Positions 7,826 through 24,858 of a DNA stretch of 64,000 nucleotides are shown here, piece by piece; the stretch's first letter is position 1; the number at the start of each line of letters is the position of its first letter. The position numbers and the translations under genes were made by a program. The stretch is taken from positions 97,166-161,165 of the forward strand of contig DAIRVG010000001.1 in NCBI GenBank assembly GCA_036802945.1. Reading direction: 5' to 3'. Source of the DNA: Vicinamibacterales bacterium. Its GTDB lineage: Bacteria; Acidobacteriota; Vicinamibacteria; Vicinamibacterales; UBA2999. The notes beneath the pieces were generated by a model, which made no database searches, was not told where the DNA came from, and worked only from the letters and a program-made list of their open reading frames with translations.

Positions 7826-9549
7826 AGGTCCTCTTCTCGGGTCTGCACTTCGCGTACTTCAGGAACTTCGAATCCGCGATACGCGAGCTGGCTGCGCGCG
7901 GGCACTCGGTACATCTCTCAGCCGATGAGGTCGAGGCCCCGATAAACATGGGCGGCCAGCATCTGGTGGAGTGCCTGGCGGCGCAATGTCCCACGATCTC
8001 ATGGGACCTGGCGCCTTCGCTGGAGCAGGAAACCTGGTTCGATGCAGCCCGGCGTCTGCGGCTTGGCCTGGACTACGTGCGGGTGCTCGAGCCGGCGTAT
8101 GCATCGGCCTCGAAGCTTCGCATGCGCGCGCGCGCGCGCGCGCCGCGTGTCGTCCGATGGGCGGCCGCCGCGCCTGTTATCGGACGTCCGCTGGCGCGTG
8201 CCGGGCTCACAGGCGCCGAACGCGCGCTGCCGGCCAGCGAGGCGCTGAAGGACTACCTGCGGCGTCACGATCCGGACGTCGTCGTGCTCGTCTCGCTGAC
8301 CTATTCACGATCACAGCAGTTCGACCTCCTGAAGGCCGCGCGGGGCCTCGGGATCCCAGTGGCCGCGGCGATCATGAGCTGGGACCATCTGTCCAGCAAG
8401 GCGCTGCTCCACGTGGCTCCGGACATGATCATTGTCTGGAACGACCTGCAGCGTCAGGAAGCGGTGGAGATGCACGGCCTTCCCTCCGACCGCATCGTGG
8501 TCACCGGCGCCCAGTGTTACGACCAGTGGTTCAGCCGCACGCCCGAGCGAAGCCGGGAGGAGTTCTGTCGCGCGATGGGGTTGCGCGAGGATCGTCCATT
8601 CGTCCTGTGGGTGCACTCGGCCATGAGTCCAGTGCCCGACCCGCCTGAGCCCGTGCTCGTCACGCAGTGGCTCGACGCCCTCCGATCGAGTCACGATGCG
8701 CGGTTGCGCGATCTGGGTGTGCTGGTGCGGCCCCATCCCGAGCGATTGAAGGAATGGGCGGGCGTGGATCTGGGGCGTTTCGACAATGTCGTGTTCCGTG
8801 GCGGCAACCCGATCGACGCGCGCTCCAAGGAGGACTACTTCGACGCCCTGTACTACAGCAGGGCGGTGATCGGCCTCGTCACGAGCGCGTTTCTCGAGGC
8901 CGCGGTGGTCGGACGCCCGGTGTTCACGTTCACGCTGCCGGAATATCGCGTCCACCAGGAGGAGATGCTCCACTTCCGCTATCTCACGAGCGTGGCGGGC
9001 GGGCTGCTTTCGACGGCGCCCGACATTCCCACACACCTGGCGCAACTCGCCGATGCGATCGCCGAGCCCGAGGGGCGCGACCAGCGCAACCGGCGTTTTC
9101 TGACGGCGTTCGTTCGGCCCGCGGGACTCGACGTCCCGGCGACGCCCGCATTCGTCGACGCGATCGAGCGGTTGCACCGCGACGGGACGCGCGGCGATCC
9201 AGGTCTTCGTGGTGACTCCTGGATCACGCCCCTCGTGGTCGCCGCCGCGGGGGCGGCGCGGACCGGCGTCGGACGATGGCTGATGCTCGACGTCCGTGGC
9301 GACGAGACCGACGACCATCGCGATCGGAAGCAACGCATCATCAGCGCGCGGGCCGCCGCGAAAGCCACCCGGCAGCACGCAAAAGCGCGGCGGCGCGCCC
9401 GGCGGGCGCGTCGTGATGCCATCCTGCGGGGCGGCAAGGAAGTGAAAAGCGCGCTTCTTCTCATCCGCTATCACGCCGCCGTGGCCGTCCATCGAGCGCT
9501 CGCGCTCACCGGTTTCGATCGGAATCATCCGGGAGCCGGCAAGGAATGA
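7822..9549 (+). CDS. Family A uncharacterised GT-B-like protein, paralog 1 of 3
   Basis: MKVLFSGLHFAYFRNFESAIRELAARGH, MSWDHLSSKALL, VLVRPHPERLKEW and VTSAFLEAAVVGRPV. ATG 7822 overlaps the upstream TGA. Basic C-terminal tail. Confidence 0.75.
   Translation: MKVLFSGLHFAYFRNFESAIRELAARGHSVHLSADEVEAPINMGGQHLVECLAAQCPTISWDLAPSLEQETWFDAARRLRLGLDYVRVLEPAYASASKLRMRARARAPRVVRWAAAAPVIGRPLARAGLTGAERALPASEALKDYLRRHDPDVVVLVSLTYSRSQQFDLLKAARGLGIPVAAAIMSWDHLSSKALLHVAPDMIIVWNDLQRQEAVEMHGLPSDRIVVTGAQCYDQWFSRTPERSREEFCRAMGLREDRPFVLWVHSAMSPVPDPPEPVLVTQWLDALRSSHDARLRDLGVLVRPHPERLKEWAGVDLGRFDNVVFRGGNPIDARSKEDYFDALYYSRAVIGLVTSAFLEAAVVGRPVFTFTLPEYRVHQEEMLHFRYLTSVAGGLLSTAPDIPTHLAQLADAIAEPEGRDQRNRRFLTAFVRPAGLDVPATPAFVDAIERLHRDGTRGDPGLRGDSWITPLVVAAAGAARTGVGRWLMLDVRGDETDDHRDRKQRIISARAAAKATRQHAKARRRARRARRDAILRGGKEVKSALLLIRYHAAVAVHRALALTGFDRNHPGAGKE
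8124..8143. repeat. (GC)10 dinucleotide tract inside family A paralog 1
   Basis: A perfectly alternating G/C run of 20 nt that encodes RARARA. Confidence 0.9.
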
Positions 9550-11678
9550 TGACGGAGGACCCCGCGTTCGCGGCGTATCTGGACGCGCGCGAGGCGGTGG
9601 AGCGAATCAAAGGATCCGGCGCGCCATCCGGGGTCGCCCGCCCGAGCGCCTACTGGCTCGAAGAGCTCGAGCAGATCGACTATCTCGCGGACGCGTCGCC
9701 GCTGATCGTCCGCAAGCTGCGACACCACGCGTTCCACATCACCGGCATCCGTCCTTACGACTATCGTGAAAAGGGAGACGGCCGCAGGCAACGATTCGAG
9801 GGGAGGCTGCAGGCGCTGCGGGCTCTCGACCATGCCGGGTTGATGGTGCCTGAGTCGCCCGCCCTCGGTGGATTCGGCTACGAGATCGACGGCCACCTGT
9901 TCAACGTCGACACGCTGAAGTTCTACGAGGTGTTGATCGCGATGCAGCGCGGCGGCGTGCTCGACGCGATGCGCGGGATCGATCGGCCGCTCGTGTGCGA
10001 GATCGGCGCAGGATGGGGAGGGTTCGCCTATCAGTTCAAGACGCTGTTCCCGCGCGCCACGTACGTCATCGTCGATTTCGCGGAGCTGTTCCTCTTTTCG
10101 GCTACCTACCTGAAGACCGTTTTCCCGGACGCGACCCTCCGCTTCGTCGGCGAAGATTTCGATCTGACGTCCGGCGCCTGGCGCGACGCGGACTTCCTGT
10201 TTGTGCCGAACACGCTCGCGCATCTCGTCTCCTCGTTGCCGCTCGACCTCACGCTCAACATGGTCTCGTTCCAGGAGATGACCGAGGCTCAGGTGCGGAC
10301 GTACGTCGGTATGGCAGCAGACGCGCGGTGCCCGTTGCTTTACAGTCTCAACCGCGAACGTTCGTCATACAACAGCCAGCTGACCAGCGTCTCCGAAGTG
10401 TTGTCGGATCGTTACGAACTTGCTGAGGTGACGGTTCTCGACACTGATTACCCCACCGGACTGAAGAAACCGCCGAAGCCCGGCAAGACCGCCGAGCGGC
10501 CGGATCTTGCCTACCGCCATCAGGTGGGCAGGCTCAGTACGGGACCGGTGCGTTCGCTCGACTCCGCGGCCGAATTCGCCTCTGCACGTCACGCATCACG
10601 AGTCGTGCTCGGGATGACGCTCTACAACAATGCCGAGCACCTGCGGGGCGCACTCGATTCGCTCCTCGCTCAGACATGGCGCGACTTCACGCTCGTGTTG
10701 CTCGACGATGCGTCCAGCGACGACACTGAGCGAATCGCGCGGGAGTACGCCGGGCGTGATGCGCGCGTCCTCTACTTCCGCCACGCCGAGCGCAAGGCGA
10801 TGATCGCCACGTGGCGCGAAGTAGTCGTGCTGGCCGGCGAGGCGAGCCCGTCGGCGGTCTATTTCGCGTGGGTGAGTGACCACGATCGCTGGCACCCCCG
10901 ATGGCTCGAGGCCATGGTTGGCGAGCTCGATCGCGATCCTGGAGTCGTGCTCGCGTATCCCATCACGCGACGCATCGCACCGGATACCGGGATCGAGCTC
11001 GACAAGGGACCGCGGCTTTTCGAGACGATGGCGTTGCACGACGTCCGCAGCCGCTGGTCGTACTTCTGTCGTCACGCCGTGGGCTCCGGCGACATGGTGT
11101 ACGGCCTCATGCGACTGGATGCCCTGCGGCGGGCCGGAATCTTCCGCACGGTCCTGCGTCCCGATCGGTTGCTCATTGCCGAGTTGACGCTCGCCGGCCG
11201 CATACGTCAGGTGCCGGAGGTCCTCTGGTTCCGCCGGCAGTCAGCCGCGACGAGCGTCTCACGGCAGCGGCACACGCTGGTCCTGCCGCAAGAAGCGCCG
11301 CGATGGTTTGCCGCGCCGCCATGGCTCCAGCATGCGCTGGTGCTGTGGCGCGAGTACGTCACGCCCGATCCACGTCCGATTCCGTTGCCGACGTCGCAGT
11401 GGGCGCGGATGGTGGTGCTGTACCAGGTGCGCTACGGTTGGCGCCACCTGCGCAAGTCGGAGACGTCGCACGTCGTCGGCCGCGGTATCGACAACACGAT
11501 CTGGGCAAAGAAGATCACCCGCCACTACTACCATCACGCCATTTACCGCACGCTGGTTGGCACTCGCGCGGCGTGGGGCAAGCTGCGCCGGCTCGCGCGG
11601 CGCGGCGTGTATCACGTGCTCGTGCTCACGCACCGCGTGCGGCATCGCCGGGGCAGCGAGGAAACGCCGATCCGGTGA
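9546..11678 (+). CDS. Bifunctional protein: N-terminal putative sugar O-methyltransferase fused to a C-terminal GT2 domain
   Basis: N-terminal half CEIGAGWGGFAYQF ... NMVSFQEMTE. C-terminal half VVLGMTLYNNAEHL, LVLLDDASSDDT and FAWVSDHDRWHPRWL, co-linear with 3706-4860. Confidence 0.8.
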   Translation: MMTEDPAFAAYLDAREAVERIKGSGAPSGVARPSAYWLEELEQIDYLADASPLIVRKLRHHAFHITGIRPYDYREKGDGRRQRFEGRLQALRALDHAGLMVPESPALGGFGYEIDGHLFNVDTLKFYEVLIAMQRGGVLDAMRGIDRPLVCEIGAGWGGFAYQFKTLFPRATYVIVDFAELFLFSATYLKTVFPDATLRFVGEDFDLTSGAWRDADFLFVPNTLAHLVSSLPLDLTLNMVSFQEMTEAQVRTYVGMAADARCPLLYSLNRERSSYNSQLTSVSEVLSDRYELAEVTVLDTDYPTGLKKPPKPGKTAERPDLAYRHQVGRLSTGPVRSLDSAAEFASARHASRVVLGMTLYNNAEHLRGALDSLLAQTWRDFTLVLLDDASSDDTERIAREYAGRDARVLYFRHAERKAMIATWREVVVLAGEASPSAVYFAWVSDHDRWHPRWLEAMVGELDRDPGVVLAYPITRRIAPDTGIELDKGPRLFETMALHDVRSRWSYFCRHAVGSGDMVYGLMRLDALRRAGIFRTVLRPDRLLIAELTLAGRIRQVPEVLWFRRQSAATSVSRQRHTLVLPQEAPRWFAAPPWLQHALVLWREYVTPDPRPIPLPTSQWARMVVLYQVRYGWRHLRKSETSHVVGRGIDNTIWAKKITRHYYHHAIYRTLVGTRAAWGKLRRLARRGVYHVLVLTHRVRHRRGSEETPIR

Positions 11679-13282
11679 AGATTCTCTTCGTCGCGCGCCA
11701 CTTCACGTACTTCCGAAACTTCGATTCGGTCTTGCGGCTGCTTGCGTCCCACGGGCACGCGATTCACCTCGCGGTTGAGCGGGACGAGACGCAAGGGCTC
11801 GGCGGCGTGGCCCTCGTGGAGCGCCTGGCGGCGGACTATCCATCCATCACTTTCGGCGAGGCGCCGGGTCGAGAACCCGACGAATGGGCCCGGTTGTCGG
11901 CCAAGATCCGCCTGGCGTTCGACTACGTCAGATATCTCGATCCGCAATATGACGGTACGCCGCGGCTTCGTTCGCGCTCCGCGGAGCGCGCACCGGAGTT
12001 TGCGATCCGTTTTGGCCAGACCTCCCTGGCACGGCGCCGGCTGGCGCGCGCGGCGCTGCGACGGGTGCTGCGCGCGGCCGACGGGTCCCTGCCCCCGAGC
12101 AAACAGATCGAGGCGTTTCTGCGCGAGCAGCGTCCGGACGTGATGCTCATCACGCCGCTCATTGGCGTCGTCGGATCGCCGCAGCCCGACTACGTGCGCG
12201 CAGCCCGTGCCCTGGGGATCCCGACCGCGCTTGCCGTCTGGAGCTGGGATCATCTGTCGAGCAAGGCGCTCATCCGGGATCTGCCCGATCGCGTCTTCGT
12301 CTGGAACGAGGTCCAGCGATCGGAGGCGAAGCGGTTTCACGGCGTCCCGCGCGATCGCGTCGTCGTCACGGGCGCGCAGTGCTTCGATCACTGGTTCGAC
12401 CGCAAGGTGTCCCGCAGCCGCATCGAGTTCTGCGCTGACATGGGGTTGCCCGCCGATCGTCCACTGATCATGTACGTAGGGTCGGCGCTGTTTCGCGGCA
12501 GCCCCCCTGAAGTCGACTTCGTCATGGAATGGATCGCGCGCCTCCGCGCTAGCGCCGATCCCGCGCTCCGGAACGCGGCCATCCTGATTCGGCCGCATCC
12601 ACAGCGGATGGATGAATGGCGGAACGTGGACGTCGCGACGTTAGCGGACGTCGCCCTAAGAAGCGCGAACCCGGTGACCGAGGAGGCGCGCGCGGATTAT
12701 TTCGACGCGCTGTTTTTCAGCAGAGCCGTTGTCGGCCTCAATACGAGCGCATTCCTGGAAGCGGGCATCGTGGGCCGTCCGGTATTGGCGATTCTGCCGA
12801 CCGAGTACCACGACAATCAGGAGGGCACGCTGCACTTCCGCTACCTGACCGATGTCTCGGGCGGGCTCGTGCGCGTCAGCCGCTCGCTCGATGAGAACGA
12901 GGCGCAGCTGCGTCCCGTCCTCGCCGCCCCCGATGACGCCGCTGCGGTGCGCCGGTTCGTCGAGACTTTCCTGCGCCCGTACGGTCTCGACGTCCCTGCA
13001 ACGCCGAGATTTGCCGCCGCCGTCGAGGCGTTGCGGGATGTGCGGGTCCGACGCGGCAGTCGAATGCCGTCGCCGCTTGGGCGCGCCGCGCTCAACACGA
13101 TGGTGGCAATTGGCCAGTCTTCGCAGCATCGTGCGTGGATGTTCGACCAGGAAGAGCGCAACTACGAGGAGTGGCGCCGCCGGAAAGGCGAAATCCGCTC
13201 AAAGAACAGACGTGCGGGCCTCACCCCGGAACAGCAAGCCGAGGCCGAGCGAGAAATGCGCGCACATCGGGCGAACCCGTGA
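11675..13282 (+). CDS. Family A uncharacterised GT-B-like protein, paralog 2 of 3
   Basis: VKILFVARHFTYFRNFDSVLRLLASHGH, WSWDHLSSKALI, ILIRPHPQRMDEW and NTSAFLEAGIVGRPV. GTG 11675 overlaps the upstream TGA. Confidence 0.75.
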   Translation: MKILFVARHFTYFRNFDSVLRLLASHGHAIHLAVERDETQGLGGVALVERLAADYPSITFGEAPGREPDEWARLSAKIRLAFDYVRYLDPQYDGTPRLRSRSAERAPEFAIRFGQTSLARRRLARAALRRVLRAADGSLPPSKQIEAFLREQRPDVMLITPLIGVVGSPQPDYVRAARALGIPTALAVWSWDHLSSKALIRDLPDRVFVWNEVQRSEAKRFHGVPRDRVVVTGAQCFDHWFDRKVSRSRIEFCADMGLPADRPLIMYVGSALFRGSPPEVDFVMEWIARLRASADPALRNAAILIRPHPQRMDEWRNVDVATLADVALRSANPVTEEARADYFDALFFSRAVVGLNTSAFLEAGIVGRPVLAILPTEYHDNQEGTLHFRYLTDVSGGLVRVSRSLDENEAQLRPVLAAPDDAAAVRRFVETFLRPYGLDVPATPRFAAAVEALRDVRVRRGSRMPSPLGRAALNTMVAIGQSSQHRAWMFDQEERNYEEWRRRKGEIRSKNRRAGLTPEQQAEAEREMRAHRANP

Positions 13283-13287: not shown

Positions 13288-15963
13288 ATGAAGATTCTGT
13301 TCTTCGCGAGGCACTACTCGTATTTGCGGCTGTTCGAGTCGGCCATCCTGGAGCTCGCCCAGCGTGGCCACCACATTCACCTTGCCGCGGACCGCGAGGA
13401 AGCCATGGGCGGCCGCCGACTGGCGGAGCGGCTCGCCGAGAAGTACCCGAACGTGACGCTTGGCACGACGCCAGGGCGGGCGCCCGGCGCCTGGGCCGAG
13501 TTTGCGCGTCGTCTCCGCATGGGGATCGACTACCTGCGGTATCTCGATCCGCGGTACGAGGACACACCGCACCTGAAGGCGCGCGCGCGCGAACGCGCTC
13601 CCCGCAGCATCGTGACCCTCGCGGAACGTCTCCGCCCCGGCGGCGGCCGCCGCGCGCTCGCGAGTCTGCTGCGCACACTCGAGCGTGGCATTCCGACCAC
13701 GCGATCTCTCGAGAACTACATCCGCCAGCAGCATCCGGACGTCGTGCTGATCACGCCGCTGGTGGAGCTGGGCTCGCCTCAGATGGATCATCTGGCTGCC
13801 GCGAAAGCCCTCGGGATCCGCACTGCGTTGCCTGTCGCGAGCTGGGATCACCTTTCGAGCAAGGCGCTGGTGCGCAATTATCCAGACCTGCTGCTCGTCT
13901 GGAACGAGATTCAGAAGCGGGAAGCGGTCGAGATGCACGGCGTTGCGCCCGATCGGGTCGTTGTCACCGGCGCGCATTGCTACGATCAGTGGTTCGACCG
14001 CTCGCCGTCGAGGAGCCGCGAGAGCTTCTGCGCTCGCGTCGGGCTCCGGTCGGACAGGCCGCTGGTGCTCTATCTCTGTTCGTCGCTGTTCCGCGGGACC
14101 GCCAGCGAGGCGGCTGTCGTCGAACGCTGGGTCGAAGCAATCCGAACCAGCGACGATCCCCGCTTGAAAGACATCGGCATCCTGATCCGCCCGCATCCGG
14201 CCCGACTCGACGAATGGAAGCACGTCGATCTCTCCGGATACCGAAACATCGTGTTCTGGGGCGCGCATCCGGTCGATGCCGAGGCCAAGGACGACTATTT
14301 CGATTCGCTGTATTACAGCGCTGCGGTCGTCGGCCTGAATACGAGCGCCTTTCTCGAAGCAGCCGTGGTCGGCAAGCCGGTGCACACCGTGCTCGTCGAC
14401 GAGATCTCTCGGGTCAACCAGGAAGGGACAATTCATTTCCACTACCTGATGGAAGTGAACGGCGGGTTGCTGCGCGTCGCGCGGACGTTCGACGAGCATC
14501 TTCTGCTGCTGGCCGACTCGCTCGCGCCCGAAGGCGGCGGCGACACCAAAGCGCAACGCTTCGTCGAAGGATTCATCCGGCCGCTCGGCGCATCGGTTCC
14601 TGCGACGCCTCGCTTCGCGGACGCAATCGAGAGGCTTGCAGCGTCGCCTGCGCCGCATGCGCAGGGTGACGGGATCGTGGAGCGCGCCATCCGACTGGCG
14701 CTCTATCCCGCGGTCGGCGTTCTGCATGCGCTGCTCGCGACGCAGCCGCAACGGAAGCGGGTGCGACTGAAGTTCAGCAAGTGGCACCAGGACGGACGCC
14801 GCCGCGTCTTCGTGAAGCTGAAGCAGTTTGCGCAGAGCCAGCTTGGCGAGAAGGAGTTGACGGCCGCTCCCCTCGGTCCGCCGTCGGCGCTCACTCCAAA
14901 GCCGGGCCGTCAGCGGGATCCCGCGAAGAAGCTGGCCGGCTGGAATCTGCCCGAAGCAGAAGAAACGCGCGCGCTGATCAACTCGCTTGGTCGGGGTGGA
15001 CGACCGATCCTGATCGGACCATGGTTGTCGGAGGCCGGGTTCGAGCTGCTCTATTGGATTCCGTTCCTCGCGTGGGCGAAGGCATACGGCAACCTCGATC
15101 CGTCGCAGCTCGTGGTCATCTCTCGCGGGGGTGCGTTCTCCTGGTATCGCGACATCACGACCCAGTACGAGGATGTGTTGTCCTTCTTCACGCCAGACGA
15201 ATTCCGCGCTCGCAACGACGGGCGCATCATCGAGCAGCGCGGACGGATGAAGCACGTCGAAATCTCCAGCTTCGATCGGGAGATCATTGCGAAGGTGAGC
15301 GAGAAGCGCGGCTTGAGCGGCGTTCGCCTGCTGCATCCGTCGACGATGTACCGCCTGTTCGATCATTTCTGGTTCCAGCGCGTGCCGGTCACACTCATCG
15401 AAGCGTTCACGTCGTTCGGGCCGCTGCCGCCCGTTGAGATCGGCGACCTGCGAAGCCGGTTGCCGGAGCGCTACGCCGCCGCGAAGTTCTACGGCAACAC
15501 CGCGTTGCCGGACACCCCGGAGAATCAGGCGTTCGTGGCGTCGTATCTCGAGGAGTTGACGCGCCACATCGACGTCGTGCTCCTCAACACCGGACAACGG
15601 TTCGACGATCACGAGGACATGGCGCGGCTCAATCGCAGCCGCATTCATACCGTCGATCACCTGATGACGCCCGAGACCAATCTCGACGTCCAGACGCGGA
15701 TTATCGCGGGCGCCGAGGCGTACGTCGGCACCTATGGAGGGTTTTCGTACCTGGCTCCCTTTGTCGGCACGCACGCGCTGACGTTCTACTCGCACATCAC
15801 CGGCTTCCGGTTCGATCACCTCGAGGTGGCCAAGCGCGTCTTCTCCGGACTGCGGGAGGGAAGCTTCGTCGAGATCGATCTTCGCTCGATGGATCTGATG
15901 CGCCTCGGTCTTGGTGGCGCGTCACATACGACAGACGCGCTCGCGGGGGCGAGGCGAGGTTGA
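13288..15963 (+). CDS. Fusion protein: family A domain (about aa 1-450), basic linker, family B domain (about aa 560-891)
   Basis: N-terminal MKILFFARHYSYLRLFESAILELAQRGH, ASWDHLSSKALV and ILIRPHPARLDEW. C-terminal ILIGPWLSEAGFELLYWIPFLAW, LHPSTMYRLF and VGTYGGFSYLAPFVG. Confidence 0.8.
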   Translation: MKILFFARHYSYLRLFESAILELAQRGHHIHLAADREEAMGGRRLAERLAEKYPNVTLGTTPGRAPGAWAEFARRLRMGIDYLRYLDPRYEDTPHLKARARERAPRSIVTLAERLRPGGGRRALASLLRTLERGIPTTRSLENYIRQQHPDVVLITPLVELGSPQMDHLAAAKALGIRTALPVASWDHLSSKALVRNYPDLLLVWNEIQKREAVEMHGVAPDRVVVTGAHCYDQWFDRSPSRSRESFCARVGLRSDRPLVLYLCSSLFRGTASEAAVVERWVEAIRTSDDPRLKDIGILIRPHPARLDEWKHVDLSGYRNIVFWGAHPVDAEAKDDYFDSLYYSAAVVGLNTSAFLEAAVVGKPVHTVLVDEISRVNQEGTIHFHYLMEVNGGLLRVARTFDEHLLLLADSLAPEGGGDTKAQRFVEGFIRPLGASVPATPRFADAIERLAASPAPHAQGDGIVERAIRLALYPAVGVLHALLATQPQRKRVRLKFSKWHQDGRRRVFVKLKQFAQSQLGEKELTAAPLGPPSALTPKPGRQRDPAKKLAGWNLPEAEETRALINSLGRGGRPILIGPWLSEAGFELLYWIPFLAWAKAYGNLDPSQLVVISRGGAFSWYRDITTQYEDVLSFFTPDEFRARNDGRIIEQRGRMKHVEISSFDREIIAKVSEKRGLSGVRLLHPSTMYRLFDHFWFQRVPVTLIEAFTSFGPLPPVEIGDLRSRLPERYAAAKFYGNTALPDTPENQAFVASYLEELTRHIDVVLLNTGQRFDDHEDMARLNRSRIHTVDHLMTPETNLDVQTRIIAGAEAYVGTYGGFSYLAPFVGTHALTFYSHITGFRFDHLEVAKRVFSGLREGSFVEIDLRSMDLMRLGLGGASHTTDALAGARRG

Positions 15964-15982: not shown

Positions 15983-17014
15983 ATGCTGCGCGCGCTGAGA
16001 CGGCCTGTCCGCGAGATGCTGCGGCATCGAGCGGAGCTGCGCGAACAGCTGGACTGGTCGCGTACGGCGTGGCAGGTCGAGCGCGAAATCGACGACATCG
16101 CCGCCGGCAGCCGCACGCTCGTCGTCGGCCCGTGGCTCTCCGAGGTAGGGTACGAGGCCCTCTATTGGATCCCTTTTCTTCGCTGGGTGAAGGCCGCGTT
16201 TCGCATCGATGCGTCACGGGTTGTGGCGGTGTCACGCGGCGGGGTGGGCTCGTGGTACGAAGGAATCGCCGGCCGGTACGTCGAAATCTGGGATGAGTGC
16301 GACCCGGCGGAATTTGCCGTTCGCGCCGCGGAACGGGGCGCCACGAAGCAGCACGAGGTCTCGGCGTTCGATCGCGAGGTCATCGCGGCGGTCGAACGCC
16401 GGCTGGGCGAACGCGTGGATGTCCTCCATCCGTCGCTGATGTACCGGCTTTTCTCTCTGTTCTGGTCCGGTCAGAAGCCGCTGGGCTTTCTCGACGCGCA
16501 TACCCGCTTCGAGCCGGTGGCGCCCCCGCGGATCGTCGATGCCAGCCGTCTCCCGCGCGAATACGTCGCGGTGAAGTTCTATGCGGCGCGCTCGCTGCCG
16601 GATACGCCGGAAATCCGCCGCACGCTCGCGTGGTTTGTCGACAGCCTGGCCGAGCGCACCAACGTCGTGCTGCTCGAGACCGGACTCGTACTCGACGAAC
16701 ACACCGACTACACCTTCGGGTCCTCGGGGCGTGTCATCAGCGCGAAGCCGTGGATGACGCCGGCCAACAATCTGGGGGTGCAGACGCAGGTCATTGCCGG
16801 AGCGCAGGCGTTCCTCGGCACCTGCGGCAGCGTGGCGTGGCTTGCCCCGATGCTCGGTGTGAACACGTCGGCGGTGTACGTCGATCCCAAGTGGCTGCAC
16901 GCGCACCTCGGGGTCGCGCTGCGCGCCTGTCATCGCGCGGGCGCCGGCCGGTTTGCGGCGATGGACCTCCGGGCGCTCGATCCCCTCGGCATCCCGGTGC
17001 ACGTCCGTTCATGA
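15983..17014 (+). CDS. Family B uncharacterised protein (GPWLSEVGYE family), stand-alone copy 1
   Basis: VVGPWLSEVGYEALYWIPFLRW, VSRGGVGSWY, LHPSLMYRLF, YVAVKFY and LGTCGSVAWLAPMLG. The start is chosen as the first ATG after the upstream stop. Confidence 0.7.
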   Translation: MLRALRRPVREMLRHRAELREQLDWSRTAWQVEREIDDIAAGSRTLVVGPWLSEVGYEALYWIPFLRWVKAAFRIDASRVVAVSRGGVGSWYEGIAGRYVEIWDECDPAEFAVRAAERGATKQHEVSAFDREVIAAVERRLGERVDVLHPSLMYRLFSLFWSGQKPLGFLDAHTRFEPVAPPRIVDASRLPREYVAVKFYAARSLPDTPEIRRTLAWFVDSLAERTNVVLLETGLVLDEHTDYTFGSSGRVISAKPWMTPANNLGVQTQVIAGAQAFLGTCGSVAWLAPMLGVNTSAVYVDPKWLHAHLGVALRACHRAGAGRFAAMDLRALDPLGIPVHVRS

Positions 17015-18078
17015 CAGGCATGTCATTCAACTCGCATCCCGCGCTCGCCGGTCTCGGCTCCGGCCGGTGTCTCGTCATCGGCGAGGTCGCGCTCACCCAC
17101 GACGGCAGCCTCGGCCTGGCGCATGCGTTCGTCGATGCGATCGCGGACGCCGGCGCGGACGCGGTGAAATTCCAGACACACATCGCAGCCGGCGAGAGCA
17201 CGCCCTCGGAGCCCTTCCGCGTGAAGTTCAGCCGCCAGGACGAGACCCGCTACGACTACTGGAAGCGGATGGAGTTCTCCGAGGACCAGTGGCGCGGACT
17301 CGCGGATCACGCGCGCCACCGCGGCATGCTGTTTCTCTCGTCGCCCTTTTCGGTGCAGGCGATCGAGCTGCTCGATCGTATTGGCATGCCGCTGTGGAAG
17401 ATCGCATCGGGTGAAACCTCGAATATGATGCTGCTCGATCGCGTTCTCGACACACGCAAGCCCGTGCTGCTCTCGACCGGCATGAGCCCGATCGCGGAGA
17501 TCGATTCGGCGGTCGCCCGCGTGCGCGCGCGCGACGTCGACGTCGGGGTGTTCCAGTGCACGACCGCCTATCCATGCCCGGCGGAAAAGATCGGCCTCAA
17601 TCTCATCCCGTTTTACAGGGAGCGATATGGGTGCTGGGTGGGGCTGTCGGATCATTCGGCGACGATCTATCCGGGCCTCGCCGGGGCGGCGCTCGGCATG
17701 GACATGCTCGAAGTACACGTGGCGCTTTCGCGAGAGATGTTCGGACCGGACGTGATCGCGTCGGTCACCACCTCTGAATTGCGCCAACTGGTCGACGGTG
17801 TGCGCTTCATCGAGCGCATGCGCGCCAACCCGATCGACAAGAACGCGTCGGCGCAGGAAACCGCGCCACTGCGCAAGCTGTTCACCCGGAGCCTCGTGGC
17901 AAGCAGGGATCTGCCCGCGGGCACCGTCATCACGCGCGAACATCTGGCGGTCAAGAAACCGGGTACCGGTCTCTCGCCGGATCGCCTCGAGGAGCTCATT
18001 GGCCGGCGCCTTGCGCGCCCCGTTATTGCAGATCAACTCCTTGCGGTGGAGGATATCGAAGGACCCGCCCGCTCTTGA
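17011..18078 (+). CDS. neuB: N-acylneuraminate/nonulosonate synthase (bacterial NeuB/LegI type)
   Basis: VIGEVALTHDGSLGLAHAFVDAIADAGADAVKFQTH, KIASGE, GLSDHS and a C-terminal SAF-like LVASRDLPAGTVITREHLAVKKPG. The ATG overlaps the upstream TGA. Confidence 0.85.
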   Translation: MTGMSFNSHPALAGLGSGRCLVIGEVALTHDGSLGLAHAFVDAIADAGADAVKFQTHIAAGESTPSEPFRVKFSRQDETRYDYWKRMEFSEDQWRGLADHARHRGMLFLSSPFSVQAIELLDRIGMPLWKIASGETSNMMLLDRVLDTRKPVLLSTGMSPIAEIDSAVARVRARDVDVGVFQCTTAYPCPAEKIGLNLIPFYRERYGCWVGLSDHSATIYPGLAGAALGMDMLEVHVALSREMFGPDVIASVTTSELRQLVDGVRFIERMRANPIDKNASAQETAPLRKLFTRSLVASRDLPAGTVITREHLAVKKPGTGLSPDRLEELIGRRLARPVIADQLLAVEDIEGPARS

Positions 18079-19232
18079 CCAAACGAAAAATCTGCGTCGT
18101 CGTCACCGCCCGCCCCAGCTACTCCCGTATCCGCAGCGCCCTCAAAGCCGTCAACGAGCATCCCGATCTCCAGCTCCAGCTCGTCGTAGCCGCGTCCGCG
18201 CTGCTCGACCGTTACGGCAATGCGATCCAGGCGATCGAACGCGACGGGTTCGCGATCGAGCAGCGCGTCTACATGGTGCTCGAGGGCGAGAACCTCGTGA
18301 CCTCCGCAAAGTCCACAGGTATCGGGCTCTCGGAGCTCGCGACGGTGTTCGACAACCTCAAGCCGGACGCGGTCGTCACGGTCGCGGATCGCTACGAGAC
18401 GCTCGCGACCGCCGTCGCCGCGTCGTACATGAACATTCCCGTCGTGCACGTGCAGGGCGGGGAGGTGACCGGGTCGATCGATGAGAAGGTGCGCCACGCC
18501 GTCACGAAGCTCGCGAACCTGCACCTAGTGTCCACTCAGCTCGCCGCGGAGCGTGTCCGCCGACTCGGTGAGGAGCCCGACAGCATCTTCGTCACCGGAT
18601 GTCCGTCGATTGACATTGCTGCCGAAGTCGCGGCGCGGCCCGCAATGGATTTCGATCCGTTCGTGAAGTACGGGGGCGTCGGGCCGACCACCGACCTGTC
18701 CAGGGGTTACGTGGTGGTGATGCAGCACCCCGTGACGACTGAGTACGAAGAGGCGCGGCAGCAGGTCGACGAGACGCTGTATGCGGTGAAAAACTTCGGC
18801 GTGCCGGTGCTCTGGTTCTGGCCGAATGTCGACGCCGGATCGGACGGGACATCGAAAGGCATCCGCGTGTTCCGCGAGAAGGAAGATCCACCAAATTTCC
18901 ACCTGTTCCGCAACATGTCCCCGGAAGATTTCCTTCGCCTCCTTTGCGGCGCGACGGCGATTGTCGGCAACTCGAGCGTCGCAATCAGGGAATGCTCGTA
19001 CCTCGGCGTGCCGGCGGTGAACATCGGTAGTCGACAGCTTGGACGCGAACGCGGGCAGAACGTGATCGACGTTGACCACGATCGCAAGGAGATCTCCGAC
19101 GCAGTCCAGACCCACATCAGGCGCGGCAAGCCGACGCGCGATCTCCTGTACGGCGACGGCAAGGCGGGAGGCCGCATCGCCGATTGCCTCTCGAAAGTCG
19201 AGCTGAAGATCGAGAAGAGGTTGACGTATTGA
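18075..19232 (+). CDS. neuC: UDP-sugar 2-epimerase, hydrolysing (NeuC/LegG type), copy 2
   Basis: KICVVVTARPSYSR, ADRYETLA and HVQGGEVTGSIDEKVRHAVTKLANLHL. The TTG start overlaps the neuB stop. Confidence 0.85.
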   Translation: MTKRKICVVVTARPSYSRIRSALKAVNEHPDLQLQLVVAASALLDRYGNAIQAIERDGFAIEQRVYMVLEGENLVTSAKSTGIGLSELATVFDNLKPDAVVTVADRYETLATAVAASYMNIPVVHVQGGEVTGSIDEKVRHAVTKLANLHLVSTQLAAERVRRLGEEPDSIFVTGCPSIDIAAEVAARPAMDFDPFVKYGGVGPTTDLSRGYVVVMQHPVTTEYEEARQQVDETLYAVKNFGVPVLWFWPNVDAGSDGTSKGIRVFREKEDPPNFHLFRNMSPEDFLRLLCGATAIVGNSSVAIRECSYLGVPAVNIGSRQLGRERGQNVIDVDHDRKEISDAVQTHIRRGKPTRDLLYGDGKAGGRIADCLSKVELKIEKRLTY

Positions 19233-19240
19233 CCGTCACC

Positions 19241-20176
19241 ATGTCGTCGGATCGTCGGGCGCGGATCACTGCGCTCGACTACAACTACGCGTCACAGCCG
19301 AAGCTGGCGGTGACGTCCTGCAATTTGTGCGGGGCATCGGAGTTCGTCGTCCTGGCGCATCGCGATCGCTACGGCTATCCAGCCCAGGCGCACGCGTGCC
19401 GCCGCTGCGGCCTCGTCTTTCTCAATCCCCGGATGACGGCGGAGTCGTACGGCCGCTTCTACAACGGCATCTATCGTCCGCTCGTGAGCGCCTTCCACGG
19501 ACGCCTGATTGACGCCCAGACCATACAGGACGAGCAGCGCGAGTACGCCGCCGAGCGTGCCGAATTCATCCGCTCGTTCATGGCGAAGCCAGGCGGCAGG
19601 ACGATGCTCGACATCGGGGGGTCGACCGGTGTGGTCGCCCATCACTTCGCGCGTGAATTCGGCCTCAACAGCACGCTCATCGACCCCGCTCCGCTCGAGG
19701 TTGAACAAGCGGGGCGCCTTGGCCTCGAGACGATCACAGGGCTCGTCGAAGAACATGACTTCGGCAGCCGCCGCTTCGACGTTGTCATCATCTGCCAGAC
19801 GGTCGATCACCTCCTCGACGTCGCCGGCACGCTCGGGCGCGTGCGCCAGTTGTTGTCGGACAACGGTCTTTTCTTCATCGACATTGTGGACTTCCGCGCC
19901 GCGTACCTGCGCAACTGGTCGGTCGAGGACGCAGTGAAGATCGACCATCCGTACTACCTGACCGAGTCGACGATGGTGGCGTATTTGAGGAGCTCGGGGT
20001 TCGAGGTCCTCCGCAGCGACTACGCGGCCGATCATCTGCATGTGAGCTACGTCTGTCGATCCGGCACTGCGGACGCGGACGTCATGCCCGCGGCTGCTTC
20101 GGTCGACGAGTTGTTGCGCGAGGTTCGGTTTGTGCAGAACACTCGCGGACCTGAAAGGTCCGCGCCGCGTCCGTAG
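19241..20176 (+). CDS. Class I SAM-dependent methyltransferase with N-terminal Cys4 zinc ribbon (paralog-like to 6791-7825)
   Basis: CNLCGAS...CRRCGLVFLNP, LDIGGSTGVVA and VVIICQTVDHLLD. Confidence 0.75.
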   Translation: MSSDRRARITALDYNYASQPKLAVTSCNLCGASEFVVLAHRDRYGYPAQAHACRRCGLVFLNPRMTAESYGRFYNGIYRPLVSAFHGRLIDAQTIQDEQREYAAERAEFIRSFMAKPGGRTMLDIGGSTGVVAHHFAREFGLNSTLIDPAPLEVEQAGRLGLETITGLVEEHDFGSRRFDVVIICQTVDHLLDVAGTLGRVRQLLSDNGLFFIDIVDFRAAYLRNWSVEDAVKIDHPYYLTESTMVAYLRSSGFEVLRSDYAADHLHVSYVCRSGTADADVMPAAASVDELLREVRFVQNTRGPERSAPRP

Positions 20177-20193
20177 GTTCGCGCCGCATCTGA

Positions 20194-20886
20194 ATGTCTC
20201 TCGTCCTTGGAATCGTTCCGGCGCGTGGCGGATCGAAGGGTGTGCCGGGCAAGAACGTGCGGCCGCTCGCCGGGCTGACGCTCCTTGAGTACACCGCGCG
20301 CGCCGCGCGTGAGTCTGGCGTTCTCGATCGCGTGATCCTCAGTACAGATTCGGCGGAGATCGCCGACACGGGACGACGGGCGGGACTCGACGTCCCGTTC
20401 ATGCGGCCCGTGATGCTCGCCAGCGACGACACGCCGATGCTGCCGGTGATCCAGCATGCACTCGAGTCGCTTGCGCGCGACGGCTGGTCGGCAGACATGA
20501 TCGTCCTCCTCCAGCCGACGTCTCCGCTGCGGCGGCCGGATCACATCCGGGCCGCCGTCACGACGCTGCGCGACACCAAGGCGGATTCAGTCGTGACGGT
20601 TGTCGAGATTCCTCGACACCTGTCGCCGGACTACGTGATGCGCATCGACGGAGGGCGTCTCCAGCCGTTTCTGCCGGAAGGCGCGCGCGTGACGCGCCGC
20701 CAGGACGCACGTCCTGCGTACTGTCGCGATGGCACCGTCTACGCGTTCTGGCGCGCGACGATCGAGCGGTTCGGTGGTATTTACGGCGAGGATTGTCGCC
20801 CGCTGTTGATCGACGCGCGCGAATCGCTGAGCATCGACTCACCGGCGGACTGGGACGCGGCCGAACGGCTCCTCGCAGGTCGCTAG
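20194..20886 (+). CDS. neuA: Acylneuraminate/nonulosonate cytidylyltransferase, copy 2
   Basis: IVPARGGSKGVPGKN and LLQPTSPLRR. Confidence 0.85.
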   Translation: MSLVLGIVPARGGSKGVPGKNVRPLAGLTLLEYTARAARESGVLDRVILSTDSAEIADTGRRAGLDVPFMRPVMLASDDTPMLPVIQHALESLARDGWSADMIVLLQPTSPLRRPDHIRAAVTTLRDTKADSVVTVVEIPRHLSPDYVMRIDGGRLQPFLPEGARVTRRQDARPAYCRDGTVYAFWRATIERFGGIYGEDCRPLLIDARESLSIDSPADWDAAERLLAGR

Positions 20887-20903: not shown

Positions 20904-20973
20904 GGCCACGGAGGCACGCAGGCACGGAGGACAATTGTGATTCCTAGCTCCGTGTCTCCGTGTCTCCGTGGCC
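20904..20973. repeat. Intergenic palindrome built from 3+3 tandem 8-mers
   Basis: Left arm GGCCACGGAGGCACGCAGGCACGGAGG, a 17-nt loop, right arm CTCCGTGTCTCCGTGTCTCCGTGGCC. About 23 of 26 positions are complementary. Confidence 0.8.
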
Positions 20974-20980
20974 CGTCGCA

Positions 20981-24411: not shown

Positions 24412-24858
24412 GTGATTCTCGAGTTCGAGCAGCTGAAGAACTACCGCAAGACAGTCGCAATGGTGGACGGCGCGTTCGATCCGCTGCACCGGGGGCACAT
24501 CGAGTATTTTCGCGCCGCTGCCGGGCAACTCGACGTGCCGCTGCTCTGCAACGTCGCCTCCGATCGCTACGTGCGGACCAAGCATCCACCGCTGCTTCCC
24601 GAGGACCATCGAGCGGCGGTGGTCGACGCCATCCGGTTCATCAGCTACACGCACATCAACCAGTTCGACACCGAGACGATCCTGCGCGAGCTGCAGCCGA
24701 AGTACTACGTCAAGGGTCGGGACTGGGAAGGACGCCTTCCACCCGACCAGCAGCGCATCTGCGCCGAGCACGGCATCCAGGTCGTCTACCTCGATACCGT
24801 CATCGATTCCTCGAGTCGAATTCTCAAGAACTACACGGAGCAGCAGATCCAGCGATGA
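24412..24858 (+). CDS. Small HxGH cytidylyl/adenylyltransferase-like nucleotidyltransferase (TagD / RfaE-domain-II type)
   Basis: VAMVDGAFDPLHRGHIEYF. 148 aa. GTG start. Confidence 0.7.
   Translation: MILEFEQLKNYRKTVAMVDGAFDPLHRGHIEYFRAAAGQLDVPLLCNVASDRYVRTKHPPLLPEDHRAAVVDAIRFISYTHINQFDTETILRELQPKYYVKGRDWEGRLPPDQQRICAEHGIQVVYLDTVIDSSSRILKNYTEQQIQR

What the first reader, a model, noticed from the sequence alone, without database searches (positions are those of the whole stretch)
13288..15963. Rosetta-stone fusion linking the two unknown families (A-B) in one 891-aa protein
The N-terminal ~450 aa belong to family A and the C-terminal ~330 aa to family B. The two are joined by a ~110-aa basic linker (KRVRLKFSKWHQDGRRRVFVKLKQF...). 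Both families also occur as separate genes immediately up- and downstream. A natural fusion of two otherwise separate paralog families is strong genomic evidence that they act together in one complex or on one substrate. One possible arrangement is a dual-domain polymerase analogous to bifunctional capsule polymerases.
Basis: partly seen in the sequence, partly recalled or inferred. Interest (0 to 1): 0.75.

Follow-up and report, generated by a model that had tools for sequence, protein, structure and literature searches.

The report
Two-module glycosyltransferase fusion in glycan cluster
One 891-residue protein of a soil Acidobacteriota bacterium joins two uncharacterised sugar-transferase-like modules that also occur as separate neighbouring genes, and the same two modules recur, fused or adjacent, in at least three named phyla, so it is a real building block of a surface-glycan assembly line, not an artefact.

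Summary
ORF 13288-15963 is continuous. Residues 1-452 are family A and about 555-870 are family B. A basic linker of about 110 residues joins them. Stand-alone A and B genes flank it directly.

The fusion is not an assembly error. Full-length orthologues occur in more than 120 protein clusters. A-B fusions make up 41 of the 150 best family-B representatives. One is in the cultured Thermosulfuriphilus ammonigenes.

Both modules are predicted GT-B folds with no Pfam or PDB sequence match:
- A is a generic GT-B with an invariant His-Pro motif and a weak hit to the Tannerella nonulosonic-acid transferases.
- B is a Pfam orphan, structurally closest to GT9 heptosyltransferases.

The modules are shuffled freely: A-A, A-A-A, A-B-A, A-A-B, B-A-B, B-B, GT2-B, B-sulfotransferase and ABC-ATPase-B.

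Across phyla the constant neighbours are an RfaE-domain-II-like nucleotidyltransferase, a methyltransferase and a 307-residue unknown protein. Outside Acidobacteriota an ABC transporter is also adjacent. In this window the setting is a large sialic-acid-like sugar cluster.

Best reading: a membrane-associated bifunctional transferase within a modular glycan assembly system. This is a new variant of a known kind. Donors, acceptors and product are unresolved.

The parts
13288..15963 (+). A-B fusion gene (891 aa)
   Evidence: Continuous ORF. 100% identical cluster P0001 and more than 120 full-length orthologue clusters. GC3 periodicity is uniform along the ORF.
13288..14643 (+). Family A module (aa 1-452), GT-B fold
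   Evidence: 51-52% identity to A1 and A2. In the AF2 model the per-10-residue block pLDDT is mostly 77-97, with three blocks at 66-67. Foldseek matches GT-B proteins: NeuC/WecB epimerases, MshA, WaaG. Weak hit to NF046086 (E 2e-8). Invariants SWD..K, RPHP and NTS..E are kept.
14644..14949 (+). Linker (aa 453-554): long helix 463-518 with a hydrophobic stretch at 467-484 and a polybasic stretch at 486-510, then a disordered segment
   Evidence: AF2 secondary structure and low pLDDT for residues 519-547. Net charge +12. Length is 56-138 aa and charge is net positive in 32 of 33 divergent fusions. Hydropathy and hydrophobic moment.
14950..15897 (+). Family B module (aa 555-870), GT-B fold, GT9-like
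   Evidence: 40-42% identity to B1-B3. The B1 model has pLDDT 87. Best Foldseek hits are GT9 structures 3tov, WaaC, TibC and WaaF. hhalign against E. coli GT9 gives probability 70%. All 27 family invariants are kept.
7816..9549 (+). Stand-alone family A paralogue A1 (577 aa)
   Evidence: blastp E 2e-149 to the fusion. Invariants are kept apart from two substitutions, S266A and N351V.
11675..13282 (+). Stand-alone family A paralogue A2 (535 aa), directly upstream of the fusion
   Evidence: blastp E 9e-158. It is fused to the A-B gene in P0043, giving A-A-B.
15983..17014 (+). Stand-alone family B paralogue B1 (343 aa), directly downstream of the fusion
   Evidence: blastp E 2e-74. Orthologues found. 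AF2 model.
20960..22021 (+). Family B paralogue B2
22003..23271 (+). Family B paralogue B3
33890..35152 (+).
   Evidence: tblastn E 1e-68. Invariants kept.
24412..25520 (+). CTP_transf_like nucleotidyltransferase (24412-24858, best match RfaE domain II) plus SAM methyltransferase (24855-25520). These are the cross-phylum conserved partners of A and B.
   Evidence: Pfam. NCBIfam. They form one fused gene in L027 and L030 and lie directly downstream of a B domain in L027, L030 and L032. Co-occurrence table.
38548..39471 (+). 307-aa protein of unknown family, conserved next to A/B in other phyla
   Evidence: 37-50% identity to genes adjacent to A/B in L027, L030 and L032. No Pfam, NCBIfam or PDB hit.
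17002..20886 (+). NeuB-like synthase, NeuC, methyltransferase and CMP-nonulosonate synthetase-like genes between B1 and B2
   Evidence: Pfam and NCBIfam. Synteny is conserved in Acidobacteriota loci.
4931..7825 (+). Second NeuC, CMP-synthetase-like gene and methyltransferase, directly upstream of A1
9546..11678 (+). Sugar O-methyltransferase (NanM-like) fused to GT2, between A1 and A2
   Evidence: Conserved in related loci.

Best explanation
The 891-residue protein is a genuine bifunctional enzyme made of two different GT-B-fold transferase modules. Its middle segment is hydrophobic and then polybasic, and I infer that this segment holds the protein at the cytoplasmic face of the membrane. Each module is inferred to add one kind of residue to a growing lipid-linked glycan. 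Fusion places two consecutive steps on one polypeptide.

The protein belongs to a modular system in which active A modules (3 in this window) and B modules (5 in this window) occur as single genes or in many fused combinations. The system works with an RfaE-domain-II-like nucleotidyltransferase plus a methyltransferase, which probably supply a special activated donor, most likely for the GT9-like B modules. In this genome it also works with several CMP-nonulosonic-acid (sialic-acid-like) pathways. In other phyla the same modules lie beside a Wzm/Wzt- or Kps-like ABC exporter, the hallmark of processive polysaccharide assembly. In this Acidobacteriota window no ABC exporter is present, so the export route is open.

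Shown: ORF continuity, domain homology, predicted folds, conservation of the fusion, conserved neighbours, and retention of invariant polar residues.

Inferred: catalytic activity, donor and acceptor identity, membrane association, polymerase versus oligosaccharide-building role, and physical coupling of stand-alone A and B.
For: The fusion is real and conserved.

A and B are distinct families. hhalign of A against B gives probability 0.7%.

Both are confidently modelled GT-B folds. B1 has pLDDT 87 and pTM 0.87; the fusion has pLDDT 82.5. Foldseek gives GT-B hits with probability 1.0.

B is GT9-like. Its top Foldseek hit is the GT9 structure 3tov, followed by WaaC, TibC and WaaF. hhalign against E. 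coli WaaC/F/Q/U gives P 4e-5, against probabilities of 1% and 0.2% for the GT4 and GT30 controls.

A has weak but significant similarity to the genetically proven Tannerella Pse/Leg transferase family NF046086 (E 2e-8; PMC5420450). It has an invariant R-P-H-P. Its relatives give GT4 N-domain hits in 24 of 40 cases.

All invariant polar residues are kept in every A and B copy of the window and in cross-phylum copies.

The modules are shuffled: 41 A-B, plus A-B-A, B-A-B and B-B; 95 A-A, plus A-A-A and A-A-B; GT2-B, B-sulfotransferase and ABC-B.

Conserved neighbours are the CTP_transf_like gene, the methyltransferase, the 307-aa protein and an ABC transporter.

The NeuB/NeuC/CMP-synthetase context is seen in the window and in most Acidobacteriota-type loci long enough to show it.

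The linker is net positive in 32 of 33 fusions, and most have a hydrophobic stretch.

There is precedent for glycan-polymerase modules variably distributed between single and multimodule proteins (PMC11231755), for NmW GT4-spacer-sialyltransferase polymerases (PMC6048754), and for TagF-like/GT-B polymerases (PMC5974469).
Against: - There is no biochemical evidence for any member of either family.
- Neither module reaches any curated family threshold.
- A profile of 33 fusions finds nothing in PDB sequences.
- The relative orientation of the two domains is not confidently predicted (pTM 0.57), so intramolecular cooperation is untested.
- No ABC transporter is found in the 64-kb window, so the polymerase analogy rests on distant relatives.
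- In the Planctomycetota locus no nonulosonic-acid genes lie within 10 kb, so neither family is necessarily a nonulosonic-acid transferase.
- The best Foldseek hits of A are epimerases, not transferases.
Confidence: 0.6

Rival explanations
1. Teichoic-acid-like polymerase. Module A would be a TagF/TagB-like phosphotransferase that transfers a polyol- or sugar-phosphate from a CDP-activated donor made by the neighbouring CTP_transf_like enzyme. Module B would add a sugar. The product would be a poly(glycosyl-polyol-phosphate), as made by the Cps3D/Cps7D capsule polymerases.
For: - A CTP_transf_like gene is the most constant neighbour across phyla, and it lies beside an ABC transporter in L027, L030 and L032. 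This is the TagD/TagF/TagGH logic.
- The Tannerella NF046086 family that A weakly matches was described as TagB-like.
- Glyphos_transf (PF04464) is hit weakly by 5 of 40 A relatives, best E 3e-4.
- The capsule multi-enzyme polymerase 8qoy is among the Foldseek matches of the fusion.
- A minimal Planctomycetota cluster has no sugar-precursor genes other than the nucleotidyltransferase and methyltransferase.
Against: - The nucleotidyltransferase scores far better against RfaE domain II (67-73 bits) than against TagD (19-29 bits).
- The window's own A proteins give no PF04464 hit at E below 0.1.
- Hits to the GT4 N-terminal domain are much more frequent (24 of 40).
- The nucleotidyltransferase always lies next to a B domain, not an A domain.
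Confidence: 0.2
2. Module A is not a transferase. It would be a UDP-sugar 2-epimerase-like or hydrolase enzyme, so the fusion couples precursor synthesis to a B transferase.
For: The best Foldseek matches of the A half are NeuC/WecB-type UDP-GlcNAc 2-epimerases (TM about 0.66 on the target, E 3e-10). Epimerase_2 is hit weakly by 4 of 40 relatives.
Against: - The window already has two bona fide NeuC genes above the NCBIfam cutoff.
- A occurs as A-A and A-A-A tandems with every copy keeping the invariants, which is typical of polymerase modules and not of epimerases.
- Hits to GT4 and to the nonulosonic-acid transferase family are more frequent and stronger.
- Epimerases and GTs share the GT-B fold, so the structural match is not specific.
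Confidence: 0.07
3. In the fusion, module B is a non-catalytic glycan-binding or scaffolding domain that positions A on its substrate.
For: B domains fused to ABC-transporter ATPases and to GT2 have lost several invariants of the C-terminal half. So degenerate B domains, possibly binding-only, do exist.
Against: The B domain of this fusion and of the T. ammonigenes A-B fusion keeps all 27 family invariants, identical to the stand-alone B enzymes.
Confidence: 0.06
4. The fusion is an assembly or sequencing artefact that joined an A gene to a B gene.
For: Stand-alone A and B genes flank it. Some long-read MAG loci show the gene in pieces (L021-L024).
Against: - Full-length fusions occur in more than 120 clusters from JGI, ENA, NCBI and Logan assemblies.
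- The fusion is present in complete genome CP048877.1.
- GC3 periodicity is uniform.
- The fragmented loci show the same breaks in several other genes of the cluster, such as NeuC and the methyltransferases, as expected from indel-rich assemblies.
Confidence: 0.01

Closest known systems
Multimodule glycosyltransferases of ABC-transporter-dependent O-antigen and capsule assembly (e.g. Klebsiella O4/O7 enzymes, WbdA, WbbB; PMC11231755)
   Same: - Several transferase modules are variably distributed between single-module and multi-module proteins.
- Relatives of A-B lie next to ABC2_membrane and ABC_tran genes and next to methyltransferases.
- There is a long helix between the modules.
   Different: - Neither module belongs to a curated GT family.
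- The window itself has no ABC transporter.
- No terminator or molecular-ruler function has been identified.
- The constant partner is an RfaE-II-like nucleotidyltransferase plus a methyltransferase.
Neisseria meningitidis serogroup W/Y capsule polymerase (GT4 hexosyltransferase, intervening sequence, GT97 sialyltransferase; PMC6048754)
   Same: - Two different transferase domains on one chain, separated by a spacer.
- Genomic context of sialic-acid-type (NeuB/NeuC/CMP-synthetase) genes.
- The A N-domain is weakly GT4-like.
   Different: - B is GT9-like, not GT97.
- It is not known which module, if either, uses a CMP-nonulosonic acid.
- The linker is hydrophobic and polybasic.
- Many paralogous single modules accompany the fusion.
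GT9 heptosyltransferases (WaaC, WaaF, TibC; PF01075)
   Same: - B has its best structural matches to GT9.
- The C-terminal nucleotide-binding region aligns: GTYGGfSYLAP against vDtGlsHlaAA.
- B is paired with an RfaE-domain-II-like nucleotidyltransferase, as GT9 is paired with ADP-heptose synthesis.
- From my own knowledge, WaaC glycosylates an ulosonic acid (Kdo).
   Different: - There is no Pfam GT9 match (1 of 60 relatives, at E 0.15).
- Identity is 10-16%.
- The WaaC residue at D261 aligns to T/Y in B.
- No GmhA, GmhB or heptose-kinase genes were seen.
Tannerella forsythia Pse/Leg transferases (BFO_1060 family, NF046086; PMC5420450)
   Same: - Significant local similarity over about 135 residues of A's N-terminal domain (E 2e-8).
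- GT-B type.
- HP motif present.
- Located in nonulosonic-acid clusters.
   Different: - The score is 34 bits against a cutoff of 200.
- No D/E-D/E-G motif upstream of HP.
- A also occurs in loci without nonulosonic-acid genes.
TagF-like capsule polymerases (Cps3D, Cps7D, Bcs3; PMC5974469, PMC10299916)
   Same: - Multi-domain GT-B/GT-B architecture.
- A neighbouring small cytidylyl/adenylyl-transferase-family gene.
- An ABC transporter in relatives.
- 8qoy is among the Foldseek hits.
   Different: - No PF04464 hit for the window proteins.
- No TPR domain.
- The nucleotidyltransferase is closer to RfaE-II than to TagD.

Membership tests
GT-B fold superfamily | Two Rossmann-like domains facing a cleft, with structural similarity to solved GT-B proteins | tested here: met
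   B1 model: pLDDT 87, and 47 PDB matches at E of 1e-3 or better; the 50 listed are all GT-B proteins. Fusion model, A half: TM about 0.66 on the target to WecB/NeuC, and matches to MshA and WaaG.
GT9 heptosyltransferase (PF01075), for module B | Match to the Pfam model at the gathering score | tested here: not met
   No hit for the window B proteins at E of 0.1 or better. Only 1 of 60 relatives hits, at E 0.15.
GT9 heptosyltransferase, for module B | Profile-level or structural homology to GT9 | tested here: inconclusive
   The top Foldseek hit is 3tov (E 1e-5, probability 1.0) but TM is only 0.43. hhalign against four E. coli GT9 proteins gives probability 70%, P 4e-5, over 87 columns only.
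GT9 heptosyltransferase, for module B | ADP-heptose donor and conserved catalytic Asp residues (WaaC D13 and D261, from my own knowledge) | tested here: inconclusive
   The position of D261 aligns to T/Y in B. An invariant E-x-G-x-E follows strand 1, where GT9 has G-D (alignment by eye). The donor cannot be tested with these tools.
BFO_1060 nonulosonic-acid transferase family (NF046086), for module A | NCBIfam score at or above the cutoff of 200 | tested here: not met
   Scores are 33.7, 32.2 and 25.5 bits for the three window A copies.
Bacterial GT-B sialyltransferase-type enzymes, for module A | HP motif (His-Pro in the nucleotide-binding domain; PMC5420450 citing Freiberger 2007) | tested here: met
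   R301-P302-H303-P304 is invariant in 33 divergent fusions and in all 13 A domains checked. It follows strand 297-301 of the C-terminal domain.
Bacterial GT-B sialyltransferase-type enzymes, for module A | D/E-D/E-G motif upstream of HP | tested here: not met
   No such motif appears among the invariant columns. The conserved acidic residue of the N-terminal domain is in S-W-D-x-L..K.
TagF-like glycerophosphotransferase (PF04464), for module A | Pfam match, and the two catalytic histidines of TagF (H444, H584; PMC5974469) | tested here: inconclusive
   The window A proteins give no hit. Five of 40 relatives hit weakly (best E 3e-4). A has invariant H217, H303 and H383, but their equivalence to the TagF histidines was not established.
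Bifunctional capsule or O-antigen polymerase | Two transferase modules on one polypeptide | tested here: met
Bifunctional capsule or O-antigen polymerase | Encoded with an ABC exporter (Wzm/Wzt or KpsMT) | tested here: inconclusive
   Met in relatives L027, L029, L030 and L032. Not met in the 64-kb window or in the Acidobacteriota loci.
Bifunctional capsule or O-antigen polymerase | Processive synthesis of a repeat-unit polymer | not testable with these tools
   This needs in vitro reconstitution or the glycan structure.

The most novel reading that the evidence does not exclude
A and B would be two new glycosyltransferase families forming a widespread, phylum-spanning glycan assembly system. 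In it, the GT9-like B modules would use a previously unknown methylated, ADP- or CDP-activated donor made by the fused nucleotidyltransferase-methyltransferase. A degenerate B domain attached to the Wzt-type ATPase would act as a pseudo-glycosyltransferase that recognises the polymer end. That would be a new way of coupling chain completion to export. In soil Acidobacteriota the same modules would have been recruited to build glycans rich in sialic-acid-like sugars.
Probability: 0.2. Interest if true: 0.7.

Novelty: new variant of a known kind. Interest (0 to 1): 0.45.

Why it matters
Vicinamibacterales and other Acidobacteriota are among the most abundant soil bacteria, and their surface glycans are essentially uncharacterised. 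This locus encodes three A and five B modules together with several sialic-acid-like sugar pathways.

Knowing that A and B are cooperating GT-B transferases gives a starting point for three things:
- assigning about 1,400 family-B clusters at 50% identity, and at least as many A-containing proteins, that are now labelled hypothetical;
- finding transferases for nonulosonic acids, of which few are known (PMC5420450);
- testing in a cultured organism (T. ammonigenes) how modules, donor-supply genes and an exporter carrying a degenerate transferase domain work together.

As a gene-fusion observation by itself it is ordinary. Fused transferase modules are common in polysaccharide assembly.

Tried and rejected
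- Sequence searches against the PDB, with the single protein and with a profile of 33 divergent fusions, found nothing.
- Pfam and NCBIfam at default and lenient thresholds gave no family for B and only sub-threshold hits for A.
- tblastn of A and B against 72,556 plasmids gave no match.
- hhalign of A against E. coli GT9, GT4 and GT30, and of A against B, gave no meaningful similarity.
- The genome-contig scan was run with the single protein and returned only close Acidobacteriota relatives. The metagenome scan with the B alignment kept only the 80 best matches, which were again mostly close relatives. Cross-phylum context therefore came from five encoding-contig look-ups.
- The listing of cluster members gave no taxonomy for distant representatives.
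- The 307-aa conserved neighbour could not be assigned. Its GT4-like C-terminal motif is only an impression from reading the sequence.
- A single-pass transmembrane reading of the linker was considered and rejected. It would put the two nucleotide-sugar-dependent domains on opposite sides of the membrane, and stand-alone B proteins have no signal or transmembrane segment.
- The frameshift artefact was rejected.
- The 885-codon minus-strand ORF 13162-15819 is treated as a high-GC shadow ORF.


Full report
**1. Observation**

The window is 63-68% G+C. ORF 13135-15963 (+) is open throughout, and its ATG at 13288 gives an 891-residue protein.

All-against-all BLAST of the local proteins and tblastn of the window show two families.
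- Family A: residues 1-450 are 51-52% identical to two stand-alone genes, 7816-9549 (A1) and 11675-13282 (A2).
- Family B: residues about 564-883 are 40-42% identical to 15983-17014 (B1), 20960-22021 (B2) and 22003-23271 (B3).

A2 ends five bases before the fusion gene, and B1 starts 20 bases after it. GC3 is 0.70-0.90 in the same frame along the whole gene, including the linker.

**2. The fusion is real**

A search of 5.8 billion proteins found full-length relatives of 885-912 residues in more than 120 clusters, down to 63% identity. They come from JGI, ENA, NCBI and Logan assemblies, and the named ones are Vicinamibacterales or Acidobacteriota MAGs.

Twenty-five genome loci carry the fusion with the same gene order: A1, methyltransferase-GT2, A2, A-B, B1, sometimes another A, then NeuB, NeuC, methyltransferase, CMP-synthetase, B2, B3, epimerase, nucleotidyltransferase, methyltransferase. 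A few long-read MAGs show the gene in pieces, but several other genes of the cluster are broken there too.

**3. What the modules are**

Neither half reaches any curated family threshold.
- The fusion and the B proteins have no Pfam hit. One A protein has only a sub-threshold Glyco_transf_4 hit.
- The fusion has no PDB relative by sequence, whether searched alone or as a profile of 33 divergent fusions.

AlphaFold2 models are confident.
- Stand-alone B1 has pLDDT 87 and pTM 0.87.
- The fusion has pLDDT 82.5. The A domain is residues 1-452. A long helix spans 463-518, a disordered stretch spans 519-553, and the B domain is residues 555-870. Its pTM is 0.57, so the mutual orientation of the domains is undetermined.

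Module B:
- Foldseek places B in the GT-B fold. Its best matches are GT9 heptosyltransferases (3tov, WaaC, TibC, WaaF) and UDP-GlcNAc 2-epimerases, at 10-16% identity.
- A local hhalign of a 152-sequence B profile against E. coli WaaC/F/Q/U gave probability 70% (P 4e-5) over the C-terminal nucleotide-binding region. The GT4 and GT30 controls gave probabilities of 1% and 0.2%.
- Sixty B relatives scanned one by one against Pfam gave no consistent hit. B is a true orphan family with a distant GT9 affinity.

Module A:
- A is a generic GT-B. Foldseek matches NeuC/WecB, MshA and WaaG, and the multi-enzyme capsule polymerase 8qoy at rank 39.
- Its relatives weakly hit Glyco_transf_4 (24 of 40), MGDG_synth, Glyphos_transf and Epimerase_2.
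- All three window copies weakly but significantly match NF046086 (best E 2e-8, far below the cutoff). That family contains the Tannerella forsythia pseudaminic- and legionaminic-acid transferases, which were defined genetically (PMC5420450).
- A has an invariant R-P-H-P, the HP motif of bacterial sialyltransferases. It lacks the D/E-D/E-G motif.

A and B are unrelated at the profile level. Every A and B copy in the window, and cross-phylum copies, keep the family's invariant polar residues apart from minor substitutions such as S266A and N351V in A1. All are therefore probably active.

**4. Distribution and architecture**

Family B has 1,439 representatives at 50% identity (E of 1e-3 or better) among 1.84 billion representatives.

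| Source | Architecture | Count |
|---|---|---|
| Best 150 B representatives | B alone | 105 |
| | A-B | 41 |
| | B-B | 2 |
| | A-B-A | 1 |
| | B-A-B | 1 |
| 111 newly retrieved proteins, profile search with divergent fusions | A-A | 95 |
| | A-B | 9 |
| | A-B-A | 4 |
| | A-A-A | 2 |
| | A-A-B | 1 |

- The window's own A2 and A-B genes are fused in P0043.
- B is also fused to GT2, to a sulfotransferase and to ABC-transporter ATPases.
- Named sources include Acidobacteriota, Actinobacteria, Planctomycetota and the cultured Thermosulfuriphilus ammonigenes (G4V39_08775, complete genome CP048877.1).

A-B is thus one frequent arrangement in a freely shuffled module set. [quoted passage not shown]

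**5. Conserved partners**

Outside Acidobacteriota:
- In three of the five loci examined in detail (L027, L030, L032), the A and B genes lie beside ABC_tran and ABC2_membrane genes. They also lie beside a CTP_transf_like nucleotidyltransferase plus a SAM methyltransferase, which are one fused gene in L027 and L030. A protein of about 307 residues of unknown family is also adjacent.
- L029 has the ABC genes only, and L031 has none of these partners.
- All three non-ABC partners have homologues in the window: 24412-24858, 24855-25520 and 38548-39471, at 37-65% identity.

Further details:
- The nucleotidyltransferase matches RfaE domain II (67-73 bits) better than TagD (19-29 bits). Both are below their cutoffs.
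- In these loci it lies directly downstream of a B domain. In Acidobacteriota only an epimerase intervenes.
- A KpsS/KpsC-like (Capsule_synth) protein, a transketolase-like protein and a CMP-synthetase-like gene of T. ammonigenes also have window homologues at 46679-48415, 44005-45960 and 43141-43914.
- The window and the Acidobacteriota loci lack an ABC transporter. Most of them have NeuB, NeuC and CMP-synthetase-like genes instead. The window has two NeuB-like, two NeuC (above the NCBIfam cutoff) and three CMP-synthetase-like genes, plus aminotransferases, dehydratases, an acetyltransferase and many methyltransferases.
- The Planctomycetota locus has no nonulosonic-acid genes within 10 kb. 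Neither family is therefore tied strictly to such sugars.

**6. The linker**

In 33 divergent fusions the inter-domain segment is 56-138 residues long and poorly conserved. It is net positive in 32 of 33 (mean +13). Most contain a moderately hydrophobic stretch of about 19 residues, often with a proline.

In the window protein this stretch is AIRLALYPAVGVLHALLA (467-484). A segment with charge up to +7 follows it (486-510). The same R..L.P.A motif plus basic tail follows each A domain in A-A proteins and in A1. Stand-alone B proteins begin with a basic helix.

The linker is therefore A's tail joined to B's head. I infer that it is a peripheral or re-entrant membrane anchor. A membrane-spanning helix would separate two domains that both need cytoplasmic donors. 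It could also be a coiled-coil element. Neither reading is tested.

**7. Mechanism proposed**

Shown: a conserved two-module protein, predicted GT-B folds, retained invariants, and conserved partners.

Inferred:
- Each module adds one residue to a lipid-linked glycan at the inner face of the membrane.
- The fusion hard-wires two consecutive steps.
- B probably uses the donor made by the RfaE-II-like enzyme and the methyltransferase.
- In this genome one or both families handle CMP-activated nonulosonic acids or glycosylate them. From my own knowledge, GT9 enzymes glycosylate Kdo.

It remains open whether the product is a repeat-unit polymer or a long defined oligosaccharide. The paralogue count (3 A, 5 B, several GT2, one GT4) is compatible with either.

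**8. Rivals**

- A TagF-like phosphotransferase role for A (confidence 0.2).
- A as an epimerase-like enzyme (0.07).
- B as a binding-only domain in the fusion (0.06).
- An assembly artefact (0.01).

The evidence for and against each is in the rival section of this report.

**9. Comparison and novelty**

The closest known systems are:
- multimodule transferases of ABC-transporter-dependent glycan assembly (PMC11231755);
- the NmW/Y GT4-spacer-sialyltransferase polymerase (PMC6048754);
- TagF-like/GT-B capsule polymerases (PMC5974469).

This protein works like these in architecture and context. It is not a member of GT9, NF046086, PF04464 or any curated family tested. I rate it a new variant of a known kind. 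The fusion itself is unremarkable for glycan enzymes. The interest lies in two widespread orphan GT-B families with a distinctive conserved partner set. Interest 0.45.

Noticed in passing
L027:6394-8337 (T. ammonigenes), L029:2652-4517, P0385: ABC-transporter ATPases carry a C-terminal family-B domain. It keeps most invariants of B's N-terminal half but has lost several of the C-terminal, nucleotide-binding half (Y200, H240, N263, T280, H308). It looks like a pseudo-glycosyltransferase sitting where Wzt proteins usually have their carbohydrate-binding domain (PMC9445017). The GT2-B protein P0353 is similarly degenerate.
   Followed up: partly
window 24412-25520: An RfaE-domain-II-like nucleotidyltransferase and a SAM methyltransferase overlap by 4 nt. 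They are a single fused gene in T. ammonigenes (L027) and in L030. They are the most constant neighbours of A and B across phyla and always lie just downstream of a B domain.
   Followed up: partly
window 38548-39471: A 307-aa protein with no Pfam, NCBIfam or PDB hit is conserved (37-50% identity) next to A/B in T. ammonigenes, L030 and a Planctomycetota MAG. By eye, its C-terminal FFEKGLRANNTTVNAAMEVGCAVVTN resembles the EX7E region of GT4 enzymes.
   Followed up: partly
window 46679-48415: A 578-aa protein is 49% identical to a T. ammonigenes protein that passes the Pfam Capsule_synth (KpsS/KpsC-like) threshold. The window copy itself scores only 12.7 bits. It sits with transketolase-like, HAD, aldehyde dehydrogenase, SDR, second NeuB-like and third CMP-synthetase-like genes (39.6-48.4 kb), a block partly syntenic with T. 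ammonigenes and L030.
   Followed up: partly
window 25535-28249 and 28622-30508: Two large proteins (904 and 628 aa), hydrophobic and probably polytopic membrane proteins judging by eye from the translation, have no family hit. The first is conserved in related loci and is weakly similar to a 613-aa protein next to an A-B-A gene (L029). They are candidate export, ligase or GT-C-like components in a cluster that lacks an ABC transporter.
   Followed up: no
window 9546-11678 and 3706-4860: A NanM-like sugar O-methyltransferase is fused to a GT2 domain between A1 and A2. The stand-alone GT2 at 3706-4860 is a paralogue of its C-terminal half (48% identity through a relative in L031). A sulfotransferase gene (2734-3678) lies next to it, and elsewhere B is found fused to such a sulfotransferase (P0259).
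   Followed up: partly
P0043 (1406 aa; contig of 1.3 Mb): In one relative the genes corresponding to A2 and A-B are fused into a single A-A-B protein. A-B-A proteins of about 1430-1500 aa also exist (P0393-P0396); P0394 and P0396 carry a precomputed hit to the helicase-associated domain PF03457.
   Followed up: partly
window 13162-15819 (- strand): An 885-codon ORF lies antisense to the fusion gene. It is the long shadow ORF expected at about 65% G+C and was not treated as a gene.
   Followed up: no
L033 (Ga0137452_1000095) and P0001 (JGI contig of 54,435 bp): Public JGI metagenome contigs carry 100% identical copies of B1 and of the fusion protein. The window probably derives from the same or a near-identical metagenome population. 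The closest genome loci are Acidobacteriota/Vicinamibacterales MAGs at 86-88% identity.
   Followed up: no
window 62732-63766: A histidine-specific SAM methyltransferase (Methyltransf_33, E 1e-79) lies at the far end of the window and appears unrelated to the glycan cluster. From my own knowledge this is the EgtD type of ergothioneine biosynthesis.
   Followed up: no
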